Positions 9,001 to 12,000 of a DNA stretch of 18,159 nucleotides are shown here, piece after piece. A program made the position numbers. The stretch lies in the UHGV virus genome UHGV-0178165. One strand, given 5' to 3'. The stretch's first letter is position 1. Every line of letters starts with the position of its first letter. This stretch comes from a virus.

Positions 9001-12000
9001 TTTTACCCACTGCAAAGAAAACAGGATATGCAGTGGCCTGAATATATCGACCCGCGCCTGCGTAATTACCGCTCACGCCATGGCGCTATCAGTAATGACT
9101 GAGGAATTTACCATGAGAGGACTTGCATACAATCCCGGCATTCTTCCGGCAGAAATGATTATTCGCCAACGCGTAAAGCCAATGCCATCGAGAGAGGAAT
9201 TGCTTAAAAGAAATAGTTTCGGTTCTGTTAATGACAACAAATATCTGAATGCGATGTTGCGGAGTGGGAAAAAATGAAACAAATGACACTAATTGAGATG
9301 GATGGTTTTCTGAAAGGTAAATGCATCCCACGAGATTTAAAGGTTAACGAAACAAACGCTGAATATCTGGTGCGTAAATTTGCTGAAGCGGAGGCCAAGA
9401 TTTCAGCTCTACCCGAAGACCACCAGAAAGCGATTGAGTCAATTAAGCAGGCTGATGCGGCTGTTAAGTTGGCACACGAGAAGTTTTCGGCGCTGGCGGC
9501 GGAGAATGCTGGGCTGAAATCTGATACTCCACTTGGTGCCATCGAGAATGGCAGAGCGTTTGCAGACCGTTTAGAGAATTACCAGTTCGAGTGTGAAGGC
9601 GGAAACCTAAACATGTGCAGTGATTGGCAGGAGTTTCGCCGTTGCTTCGAGTACTTATCTGAATGGGCAATGCATAGCCAGACAGAGCACCCAGCCACCG
9701 ATGCTTTCCTGGCTGAAGTACGGGCGCAGGCGCTTAATGACCTTTGCTCGGCGTTCGTTAAGGGCGCGACGGCTGCCGGGCTGGACGATGGCTATACCGT
9801 AACGCTTAAGGAAGTGACAGAAGCATTGTTGCATTATGCGGAACAGATTCGCGCGCCTGAATAATTAAATTTAGTGTTGTAAATAAAATCTAATCCTTAA
9901 CCGGAGGTATATCTATGTTAAATACACAGAAAACCATTAATGCGGAAAAATATAACGAGTGGGTGAGGAAATTTTCTGAGCAGATTTTTAAAATTACTGG
10001 CGACGAGAATGCGGCAAAAAATGAATTAGAGCCGTGGACACCTGAAGGAGCCGACCCAAATTATTGCTGGTGGGATGTTGATCCAGTTGATGCTGCAAAT
10101 GAAGCTATGAGTTATCACAACGATTAATGTCAGGAGGCCGCCCGAAAGGGCGGTAATAAATAATGCAAGAAACCAAAGAAAATATCAGAAAACAGCTTTA
10201 CGGGTTTTATATTGCTTATGATTTGTGGTTGAGTAATGGGGCGAAACCAGGTGGGGTGTTTTCTCGAAATTATGGTTTATGCGCCAATCTTTTCGATTAT
10301 CTCACATCAATCGGTACCTCCAGCGAAGCGGCACTGGAACAATTACACGCTGATTTCAGAAGTGCCGGGCTGTATGAGGTGTTGCCATTTAACGAGAGTA
10401 ATGGGCATTACCATGAAGAAAAAAGGAACAACATGTGCCATATGAACCCGTCGCGGGTGGCGTGGGTCAGGGCGCAGATGGTACAGGCAGTGCCGGACGG
10501 ACTGGATTGATGAAAAGGTGGCGTAATGCCACCCAAATAGCGGACACTTATACCTATGCCAATATCACAGACCTATTCCACAACATCATCTTCTATCAAT
10601 TCAGCCTTATTTAGTTGTTCCTTAAGCTTATTCCATGCAGAATCCTCAGGCATCTGTACTCGCACAGAAACGAATTGATTAGCAGGAATGTCGATCGGGT
10701 CACCGTTCGAAACACCAGGTATGTCGTTACGTGCAAAAACGGGCGAGTTATCATGAGTGCGGTGAAACGTTTTCACCAACACAGATCCATCTTGGTTAAC
10801 AACATAATCCAGCCAGATGAGCGGCTGCTTGTTTCGGTCCTGCGGTATTTCAAATCCACCATCAATCCCACCCCATGAAGCATCTGCATTCAGACCTACG
10901 CAACCCTCAATCAGATATTCACCCAATGCCAGCCGTGTGACGGTTACCCCATCTGATTCGCGATTTGTTTCACTACTACCGTCTGAGAAAATCTTCACAA
11001 CCGGAGAGGCTTTTTTGATGAAACCACTTGAATCGACGGTCGTGTTCAGCGACGACCATGCCTCAGCCCAGCCTGCGTTACCTGCGCGAATAGCATCGCC
11101 TGCGTAGCGGAAGAACAGTTTTGATGTTGTGGACATGAATATCTGCAACACACGGTTTTTTGCATATCCTGACTCCCATAATGCTCCGTTACCTGTTCCT
11201 TCTGGCTGCCAGTTTGTCTTCCCACCTGCTTCTCCTATACTTACACCAGTAGACCAGTCTCCAGCAAATTCTGGAAGATTTGGTGAGTTAGGTGAGCGAA
11301 TTGATACATCAACCAGACCAGGGGATCCGAGAATCGACATGCTGCGGGAGGACACCTTAGTAAAAGAGTTGTACCCGCCGTTTTTGGAAATCCTTCCTGT
11401 ATAATTATTAGCCCTGTTGGTTCCATTAACTGTAATTTCCCAGGTATCGCCGTTGATGAAGTCGATCTGCAATATGCAGTATGCTGGCAGTGTCATCTGT
11501 CCTGGCGCAGATGGCCCACCTTCAAACAGTGGCATATCCTGTTCAAGATATGTCACATATCTACCTGCATCTGTATTCCGCAAATAGTCACAAATAGCTT
11601 GTGCCGATGTAAATAGCGCAATACCATCAGCCGGGTTTACAGGGTGACGGCCAGCGTTAATCACCCTTCCGCGAGGGTTAAATAACTGTGATGCGGCATT
11701 GGATAGCGGACTCATGTCTACTGTTCCAGGTTCATTAGATGGACAGTTAGCGCGAATGATGTTTAAAGTCCTATAATTTGATCCGCCCCCATTGCCATAG
11801 CGAATAGACTGTAGAAGATACAATTCCTCAGAGCCAGAAATATCACAAGACTGCACCCCCTCATTTTCAGTGGAGTAAACACTCTTCCCTGAATAACTAT
11901 CCCAGTATGTTTTGAAATCTGCAGGTGACAGCAGGTACTGACCTAATTCTGAACCAGAATGGCTGTACTCAATATAACCCTGCAACCCTGCGAAAGTATT

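What the first reader, a model, noticed from the sequence alone, without database searches (positions are those of the whole stretch)
10511..10572. Early-left operon and tailspike converge with only about 60 bp between them: no integrase, excisionase or attP
In temperate P22-like phages the tailspike is followed by attP and int-xis, and the pL operon ends at xis/int. Here the last pL-operon gene stops at 10510 and the tailspike stops at 10573, with only a terminator hairpin between. Together with the missing cI/c2 and the truncated cII-like ORF, the lysogeny module seems to be absent from this segment, suggesting an obligately lytic descendant or an integrase located unconventionally.
Basis: inference. 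Interest (0 to 1): 0.6.

Follow-up and report, generated by a model that had tools for sequence, protein, structure and literature searches.

The report
P22-like coliphage that lost lysogeny genes
This is a P22-like E. coli phage from metagenomes in which an old recombination joint removed the integrase, excisionase and attachment site, the repressor gene is also gone, and the complete genome holds no replacement, so it is most likely a lytic-only descendant of a temperate phage, a known kind of event rather than a new mechanism.

Summary
The last early-left ORF stops at 10510 and the tailspike stop codon is at 10573-10575. The spacer is 62 nt and contains one GC-rich hairpin.

The spacer is also a deletion scar. 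Its first 16 nt are the end of an intS integrase gene, including the stop codon. The other 46 nt are the intS-tailspike spacer found in integrase-bearing E. coli prophages. The crossover lies in an 8-nt microhomology, CGGACTGG (10498-10505). It fuses codon 114 of a 159-aa early gene, out of frame, to the last six intS codons.

The window is a whole metagenome contig. The same joint is 100% identical in at least 14 other contigs. One is a circular 40,758-bp genome that I read end to end. It has no integrase, excisionase, argW-type attP, serine recombinase, S24/LexA-type repressor, partition gene or protelomerase.

cI is replaced by a block carrying a second copy of the origin iterons. cII is cut to 41 codons. 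This window variant has also lost cIII.

An isolated relative, Klebsiella phage phiKp_30, lost int and cI independently. Lifestyle is inferred, not assayed. Interest is modest.

The parts
10163..10510 (+). Last early-left (pL-direction) ORF, 115 aa. It is a chimera: residues 1-114 are a truncated 159-aa early gene of unknown function, and residue 115 plus the stop come from out-of-frame intS sequence.
   Evidence: 114/114 residues are identical to WP_069903370-type ORF of plasmid pZ1323HEC0010-2. No Pfam family matched, and the PHROG matches have unknown function.
10487..10505 (.). Recombination joint. This 19-nt patch is shared 16/19 by the two parent sequences. The crossover lies in the exact 8-nt microhomology CGGACTGG at 10498-10505.
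   Evidence: Alignment A1. BLAST end points: the left parent matches up to 10505 and the right parent from 10487. The three mismatches to intS are at 10493, 10494 and 10497.
10506..10526 (+). 3' remnant of the prophage integrase gene intS: ATT GAT GAA AAG GTG GCG TAA, the last six codons plus the stop. It is not translated in this frame.
   Evidence: Identical to the end of intS in E. coli TO6. IntS ends ...ADWIDEKVA.
10517..10533 (-). GC-rich hairpin followed by a U run on the minus strand. It is the likely intrinsic terminator of the tailspike (late) transcript, inherited from the int-bearing ancestor.
   Evidence: -12.2 kcal/mol, z = -5.0. Identical in TO6 and pB1.H1.18.c6.
10527..10572 (.). 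The ancestral 46-nt intS-tailspike intergenic spacer.
   Evidence: Same length and sequence as in the TO6 prophage, between intS 4883-6040 and the tailspike 6087-8774 of L001.
10573..13260 (-). Tailspike, 895 aa.
   Evidence: Pfam PF09008 at 2e-62 and PF25670 at 2e-59. 99% DNA identity to E. coli prophage tailspikes.
4064..4554 (.). Block that replaces the whole cI (LexA/S24-type) repressor gene. It has no credible ORF.
   Evidence: Compared with the EC17CM13 prophage, window 3509-3994 and 4555-5413 flank a cI gene that is missing here. Homology in the oR region runs to about 4063, 8 nt before the cI ATG of relatives. tblastn with cI hits only the Cro HTH.
4225..4486 (.). Second copy of the replication-origin iteron block of the O gene, with 4 full and 1 degenerate 22-nt iterons plus the adjacent segment.
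   Evidence: 96.7% identical to 2692-2933. Present in both SPAdes and MEGAHIT contigs of the lineage.
3777..3992 (-). Cro-like HTH protein, 71 aa. The oR region at 3993-4063 is retained upstream of it.
   Evidence: Pfam HTH_3 at 2e-12. It occupies the same position as the HTH regulator divergent from cI in related prophages.
3511..3636 (-). cII remnant, 41 of 98 codons.
   Evidence: Homology to cII of EC17CM13 ends at window 3509.
3229..3483 (-). 84-aa N-terminal remnant of a second O-type replication initiator allele, upstream of the intact O gene (2424-3194).
   Evidence: Direct repeat 3021-3220 / 3310-3509 at 80%. Pfam HTH_36 on both genes.
5805..5806 (.). Deletion point where this variant lacks 455 bp carrying cIII and a DUF2528 gene. 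Both are present in the complete relatives.
   Evidence: Window compared with the assembled 40,758-bp genome. Gene lists of L005/L042 compared with L006.

Best explanation
The window is part of a P22-like (Lederbergvirus-type) E. coli podophage descended from a temperate IntS-type ancestor. One recombination event occurred at an 8-nt microhomology between an early-left accessory gene and the 3' end of intS. It removed everything from codon 115 of that gene through xis, attP and all but the last 21-40 nt of intS. This left the early-left operon converging on the tailspike across the old intS-tailspike terminator. Separately, the cI gene was replaced by a non-coding block containing a duplicated origin-iteron array, and cII was truncated by a replication-module exchange. 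In this variant cIII was deleted as well. The phage has no integrase, attP or repressor, and no plasmid-maintenance genes, so it cannot integrate or establish cI-type repression and should grow only lytically. Shown: the anatomy of the joint, the gene losses, and the absence of any substitute in the complete genome. Inferred: the lytic-only phenotype, the order of events, and whether the int loss was an internal deletion or a by-product of importing a tailspike module.
For: Joint: alignment A1 and the BLAST end points show a switch from the early-gene parent to intS-end plus tailspike within 10487-10505.

Ancestral layout: intS converges on the same tailspike with a 46-nt spacer, next to tRNA-Arg, in E. 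coli TO6.

Reality of the joint: 451 nt across it are 100% identical in at least 14 contigs from SPAdes, MEGAHIT, Logan and scaffolded assemblies of several samples.

Complete genome: contig k119_151426 was read in three overlapping pieces and assembled to 40,877 nt with a 119-nt terminal overlap, which gives 40,758 bp circular. Every ORF of at least 110 aa is accounted for. The per-gene Pfam lists show no Phage_integrase, Resolvase/Recombinase, Peptidase_S24, ParA/ParB or protelomerase. tblastn with IntS, a lambda-type Int, Xis and cI found nothing except the Cro HTH, and a third integrase-like protein (the 392-aa EC.P3 ORF) also hit no lineage sequence. No argW att core and no tRNA were found.

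Other lesions: cI replacement and cII truncation were mapped against the EC17CM13 prophage. cIII is missing in this variant.

Precedent: the isolated sewage phage phiKp_30 (Lederbergvirus, 33.7 kb) has no annotated integrase and keeps only 34 codons of the same cI type, with different joints.
Against: No phenotype has been measured. All lineage contigs are 99.8-100% identical and may come from one cohort, so persistence as a lytic phage over evolutionary time is not shown. The genome keeps temperate-ancestry features: oL/oR, Cro, Arc, several antirepressor-like genes, and cIII in the full-length form. A carrier state or pseudolysogeny cannot be excluded from sequence. A novel, unrecognisable recombinase among the small ORFs of unknown function cannot be formally excluded, although no ORF of suitable size lacks an assignment.
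Confidence: 0.8

Rival explanations
1. The phage is still temperate, and its integrase and att site sit at an unconventional place outside the window.
For: The window is only 18 kb of a roughly 40-kb genome, so the window alone cannot exclude this.
Against: The complete circular genome of the same lineage was read end to end and has no tyrosine or serine recombinase, excisionase or att-like tRNA fragment. The window matches it at 99.8-100%.
Confidence: 0.03
2. The phage uses non-integrative persistence: a plasmid prophage, a carrier state or pseudolysogeny, or silencing by the repressor of a resident homoimmune prophage acting on the retained oL/oR operators.
For: The oL/oR regions and Cro are retained. 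The left parent of the joint is most similar to a gene on a 92.8-kb E. coli plasmid whose annotated genes are phage-like and include a Phd/Doc toxin-antitoxin pair. Contig coverage is high (295x, 414x), which is compatible with many states.
Against: The complete genome has no partition, plasmid-replication, protelomerase or toxin-antitoxin genes and no repressor of its own. No plasmid or genome record carries the joint. Repression by a resident prophage would block the phage rather than maintain it.
Confidence: 0.1
3. The close apposition is an assembly chimera that joins two different phages at a short repeat.
For: The joint sits in a 19-nt patch shared by two unrelated sequences. The window contig has only about 4x coverage.
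Against: The identical joint occurs in independent assemblies made with different assemblers and from different samples, including contigs at 72x, 296x and 414x and a circular contig. A 19-nt imperfect repeat is shorter than the 119-nt final k-mer implied by the MEGAHIT contigs' 'k119' names.
Confidence: 0.02
4. The window is a decaying, defective prophage remnant in a bacterial chromosome.
For: There are multiple deletions and gene remnants: intS, cI, cII and O'.
Against: The complete relative carries a full P22-type set of replication, lysis, packaging, head, ejection and tailspike genes, is circular, and has no host flanks. It is absent from all bacterial genome collections searched.
Confidence: 0.02

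Closest known systems
IntS-type P22-like prophages of E. coli (for example in strain TO6, NZ_LS992166; the Sf6/HK620-style layout)
   Same: The tailspike 3' end is 99% identical, the 46-nt spacer and hairpin are identical, and the late-gene organisation is the same.
   Different: These prophages have a complete intS next to tRNA-Arg and are integrated. The window keeps only the last 21-40 nt of intS.
Klebsiella phage phiKp_30 (LC768498.2), an isolated Lederbergvirus from sewage
   Same: It is a P22-like virion module phage with no annotated integrase and no functional cI. Its early-left genes converge on late-strand genes. It shares the toprim primase at 99%, O at 92%, cro plus oR at 82%, and pL.
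   Different: Its losses are independent. It keeps 34 codons of cI and has no ori duplication, a different early-left/late joint with no intS remnant, a different tailspike, and a 33.7-kb genome. No publication was found.
Salmonella phage UAB_Phi20, a virulent P22-like phage
   Same: It is a Lederbergvirus that behaves as a virulent phage (PMC12111858).
   Different: It is reported to encode all components needed for lysogeny (PMC12111858). Here the components are physically missing.
E. coli 'plasmid' pB1.H1.18.c6 (NZ_CP146561), a 39.9-kb P22-like phage genome
   Same: It has the same tailspike type followed by an intS 3' remnant (84 nt). This shows that this boundary recombines repeatedly.
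   Different: The remnant is followed by an intact lambda-type int/xis, so integration functions were swapped rather than lost.
Classical virulent mutants of lambdoid phages (lambda vir, P22 vir). This comparison is from my own knowledge.
   Same: Both are temperate-derived phages that no longer lysogenise.
   Different: Those carry operator point mutations and keep int and cI. This lineage has gross deletions and keeps its operators.

Membership tests
P22-like (Lederbergvirus-type) podophage | P22-type coat, portal, gp4/gp10 head-completion proteins, and gp7/gp20/gp16 ejection proteins | tested here: met
   Pfam P22_CoatProtein, P22_portal, P22_Tail-4, Phage_stabilise, P22_gp7, Inj_translocase and Phage_P22_gp16 on lineage contigs. 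gp16 and part of gp20 lie in the window.
P22-like (Lederbergvirus-type) podophage | Tailspike with the P22 head-binding N-terminal domain | tested here: met
   PF09008 at 2.4e-62 over residues 1-113.
Temperate lambdoid phage with a working lysogeny module | Site-specific integrase | tested here: not met
   Only a 21-40 nt 3' remnant of intS is present. The complete genome has none.
Temperate lambdoid phage with a working lysogeny module | Excisionase and attP | tested here: not met
   No Xis hit. No match longer than 12 exact nt to the argW/att region, and no tRNA. Other att types could not be tested without a known core.
Temperate lambdoid phage with a working lysogeny module | Maintenance repressor (cI/C2, HTH plus S24 peptidase) divergent from cro | tested here: not met
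   The gene is replaced by the non-coding block 4064-4554. There is no S24 family hit anywhere in the genome.
Temperate lambdoid phage with a working lysogeny module | Establishment factors cII and cIII | tested here: not met
   cII is cut to 41 of 98 codons. cIII is absent from the window but present in the full-length relatives.
Phage-plasmid (P1, N15 or SSU5 type) | Partition system, plasmid replication initiator or protelomerase | tested here: not met
   None appear in the per-gene Pfam lists of the complete genome. No plasmid record carries the joint.
Intrinsic (Rho-independent) terminator | GC-rich hairpin followed directly by a U tract | tested here: inconclusive
   Minus strand: a 6-7 bp stem at -12.2 kcal/mol, then UUUUCAU. 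It was not called by the consensus scan. On the plus strand no U tract follows.

The most novel reading that the evidence does not exclude
The duplicated origin-iteron cassette that replaced cI (4225-4486) sits between the divergent pL and pR promoters. It may not be an inert scar. It could act as a second origin or as an O-protein binding array that helped the lineage become a repressor-free, fast-replicating virulent phage, which would be an adaptive step in the temperate-to-virulent transition.
Probability: 0.1. Interest if true: 0.5.

Novelty: new member of a known kind. Interest (0 to 1): 0.3.

Why it matters
P22-like phages are textbook temperate phages and are usually met as prophages. 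This lineage is a natural example whose route out of lysogeny can be read base by base. Its complete genome appears in several metagenomes at up to about 400x coverage, and the tailspike matches E. coli prophage tailspikes, so the host is probably E. coli. The route comprises a microhomology joint that removed int-xis-attP, a separate cI replacement, a cII truncation and continuing loss of cIII. Together with phiKp_30, it shows that such ex-temperate P22-like phages arise repeatedly. This is relevant to lifestyle prediction in viromes and to choosing phages for therapy. It does not reveal a new mechanism.

Tried and rejected
1. The exact O protein and gp16 of the window were used as baits. Both returned only contigs of the window's own variant, none reaching beyond the region the window covers.

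3. Homology searches with the scaffold protein and a 229-aa antirepressor returned only non-identical representatives. The representative P0155 led to a different phage.

4. The gap was finally closed through a 53-aa protein that is its own cluster representative.

5. IMG/VR holds homologues of the early gene but not the joint.

6. The apparent split of gp20 into 232-aa and 192-aa ORFs turned out to be a scaffold N-gap and a window-end effect, not biology.

7. My first reading, that oR had been replaced along with cI, came from a BLAST end point. The multiple alignment corrected it: oR is retained.

8. Phage EC.P3 looked like another int-less relative, but it encodes a 392-aa integrase-like ORF.

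9. Literature searches found no description of phiKp_30, of the samples, or of P22-like phages lacking the lysogeny module.

10. No convincing sigma-70 promoter for cro was predicted.

Full report
**What the window is.** The window is an entire metagenome contig, ENA ERZ1034763 NODE_473, 18,159 bp at about 4x coverage. It is a mosaic lambdoid/P22-like phage segment. No phage, plasmid or E. coli genome record covers more than 29% of it in one place.

The gene order is as follows:
- toprim primase/helicase (-), running off the left end
- O-type initiator, 2424-3194 (-)
- an 84-aa remnant of a second O allele, 3229-3483 (-)
- a 41-aa cII remnant, 3511-3636 (-)
- a Cro-like HTH protein, 3777-3992 (-)
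- an 850-nt stretch without credible genes
- N, 4846-5118 (+), followed by an early-left operon running rightward to 10510 (kil, ORF6N/pRha, Rad52-type annealase, SSB, anti-RecBCD, DUF2737, accessory ORFs)
- the tailspike, 13260-10573 (-), then arc, two plus-strand accessory (moron) genes, gp16, and the end of gp20

**The observation.** The finding's coordinates are exact. ORF 10163-10510 ends with TGA at 10508-10510. The tailspike ends with TAG on the complement of 10573-10575. The spacer is therefore 62 nt. It contains one hairpin, GGTGGC/GCCACC at 10517-10533. On the minus strand this folds at -12.2 kcal/mol, which is more stable than all 200 shuffles, and it is followed by UUUUCAU. That fits a terminator for the tailspike transcript. 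On the plus strand no U tract follows, and the consensus scan did not call the hairpin.

**What the spacer really is.** In E. coli TO6 the same tailspike converges on a complete intS gene with a 46-nt spacer, and tRNA-Arg lies just beyond int at the prophage end. Aligning the window with that prophage and with the best match for the left side gives a clean joint. The left-side match is an ORF on the 92.8-kb plasmid pZ1323HEC0010-2.
- The window follows the plasmid-type early gene up to 10505.
- It follows the intS end, spacer and tailspike from 10487.
- The two parents share a 19-nt patch (16/19 identical) in which the exact 8-nt CGGACTGG (10498-10505) must hold the crossover.
- The resulting ORF is 114/114 identical to the first 114 residues of the 159-aa parent, then gains one residue and a stop from out-of-frame intS sequence.
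- So 10506-10526 are the last six intS codons plus the stop, and 10527-10572 is the ancestral spacer.
- Everything that lies between in a temperate relative is gone. That includes the rest of the early gene, any further accessory genes, xis, attP and about 1.1 kb of intS.
- No other intS sequence, no argW-type att core and no tRNA is present.

This boundary therefore recombines repeatedly. Exchange at short or diverged homology is an established source of phage mosaicism (PMC3945230). I cannot tell whether this event was an internal deletion or the side effect of importing a tailspike module.

**Is it real?** A 451-nt segment across the joint is 100% identical in at least 14 further contigs from different samples and assemblers. 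Some have 72x, 296x and 414x coverage. The joint is absent from the following collections:
- the phage collection and 5,426 complete E. coli genomes
- PLSDB
- IMG/VR
- 185,579 GTDB representative genomes

**Is an integrase elsewhere?** One contig, ERZ19634781 k119_151426, was read completely in three overlapping pieces. The pieces agree exactly and give 40,877 nt with a 119-nt terminal overlap, that is a circular 40,758-bp genome. The window matches it at 99.8-100% apart from three deletions:
- 455 bp carrying cIII and DUF2528
- 520 bp carrying an antirepressor C-terminus and a 56-aa ORF
- 681 bp of an HNH endonuclease gene

The genome has a full replication, nin, Q, lysis, terminase, portal, scaffold, coat, gp4, gp10, needle, gp14, gp7, gp20, gp16 and tailspike set. 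No gene hits an integrase, resolvase/recombinase, S24 peptidase, partition or protelomerase family. Every ORF of at least 110 aa is accounted for. tblastn with IntS, a lambda-type Int, Xis and cI finds nothing except the Cro HTH, and a third integrase-like protein (the 392-aa EC.P3 ORF) also hit no lineage sequence.

**The immunity region.** I compared the window with a prophage that has the same cro, cII and N (E. coli EC17CM13).
- Window 3509-3994 and 4555-5413 flank a LexA-type cI gene that is absent here.
- A multiple alignment shows the oR region is kept up to about 4063, 8 nt before the cI start codon of relatives.
- The replacement block, 4064-4554, contains a 96.7% copy of the phage's own origin iterons. 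It has 4 full 22-nt repeats against 3 in the O gene.
- The block also has a segment resembling the O-primase intergenic region of phiKp_30.
- cII homology stops at 3509, leaving 41 of 98 codons.

**A cultured precedent.** Klebsiella phage phiKp_30 (Lederbergvirus, sewage isolate, 33.7 kb) shares the primase at 99%, O at 92%, and cro, oR and pL. It has no annotated integrase and keeps only the first 34 codons of the same cI type. Its joints are different, so its losses were independent. UAB_Phi20 is a virulent P22-like phage that still encodes all lysogeny genes (PMC12111858).

**Verdict.** The spacer is a deletion scar, and the lineage lacks integration, excision and repressor functions in its complete genome. 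It is best described as an ex-temperate, most likely lytic-only, P22-like coliphage. That is a new member of a known kind. The lifestyle claim rests on gene content alone. The duplicated iteron block is the only feature that might hide something more unusual.

Noticed in passing
window 4225-4486 (copy) and 2692-2933 (original): A second, slightly expanded copy of the origin iterons (22-nt unit CCCTrGTGAATCTCCTGCACCA) lies between cro/oR and pL, exactly where cI should be. It is 96.7% identical to the copy inside the O gene. Several lineage contigs break at this repeat.
   Followed up: partly
window 3229-3483 and 3511-3636: An 84-aa N-terminal fragment of a different O allele and a 41-aa cII stump sit in tandem upstream of the intact O gene. 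They look like the scar of a replication-module exchange.
   Followed up: partly
window 5805/5806, 6815 and about 13393-13400: Compared with the complete 40,758-bp relative, this variant has three clean deletions: 455 bp (cIII and DUF2528), 520 bp (antirepressor C-terminus and a 56-aa ORF) and 681 bp (most of an HNH endonuclease gene). It is otherwise 99.8-100% identical.
   Followed up: yes
window 1-2316 (-) and L042:11581-14487: The 968-aa toprim primase/helicase carries a weak precomputed Pfam LAGLIDADG_3 hit, which could indicate an intein or an inserted homing-endonuclease domain.
   Followed up: no
window 13848-15011 (+): Two plus-strand genes are inserted between gp16 and arc. One is a 218-aa protein matching a PHROG annotated 'amidase' (1e-122). 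The other is a 161-aa protein starting MKKALLIIPFLLVGC, which looks like a lipoprotein signal. They sit where P22 carries sieA (the sieA position is from my own knowledge), so they may be an exclusion or moron pair.
   Followed up: no
L042/L063 (complete relative) and window 6073-6899, 8166-8831: The genome carries an unusually large number of antirepressor-like genes (pRha, ANT, ORF6N, KilAC-type): two or three in the early-left operon, three in the nin region, and a further pRha-type (Rha) gene after the lysis genes.
   Followed up: no
L004 (NZ_CP146561, pB1.H1.18.c6): This record is filed as a 39.9-kb E. coli plasmid but is a complete P22-like phage genome. It has a frameshifted cI, rexAB, a lambda-type int/xis, and an 84-nt intS remnant beside the same tailspike type.
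   Followed up: partly
L060:992-1087 (phiKp_30): phiKp_30 retains only the first 34 codons of a LexA-type cI next to its cro, and the depositor did not annotate this. The record also starts inside its O gene.
   Followed up: partly
L064/L065 (ERZ19693148 k119_38800, 36,272 bp, multiplicity 1031): A second, different P22-like metagenomic phage shares the 53-aa nin-region ORF and the 968-aa primase but has other O, Dam and lysis genes. I did not determine whether it also lacks int and cI.
   Followed up: no
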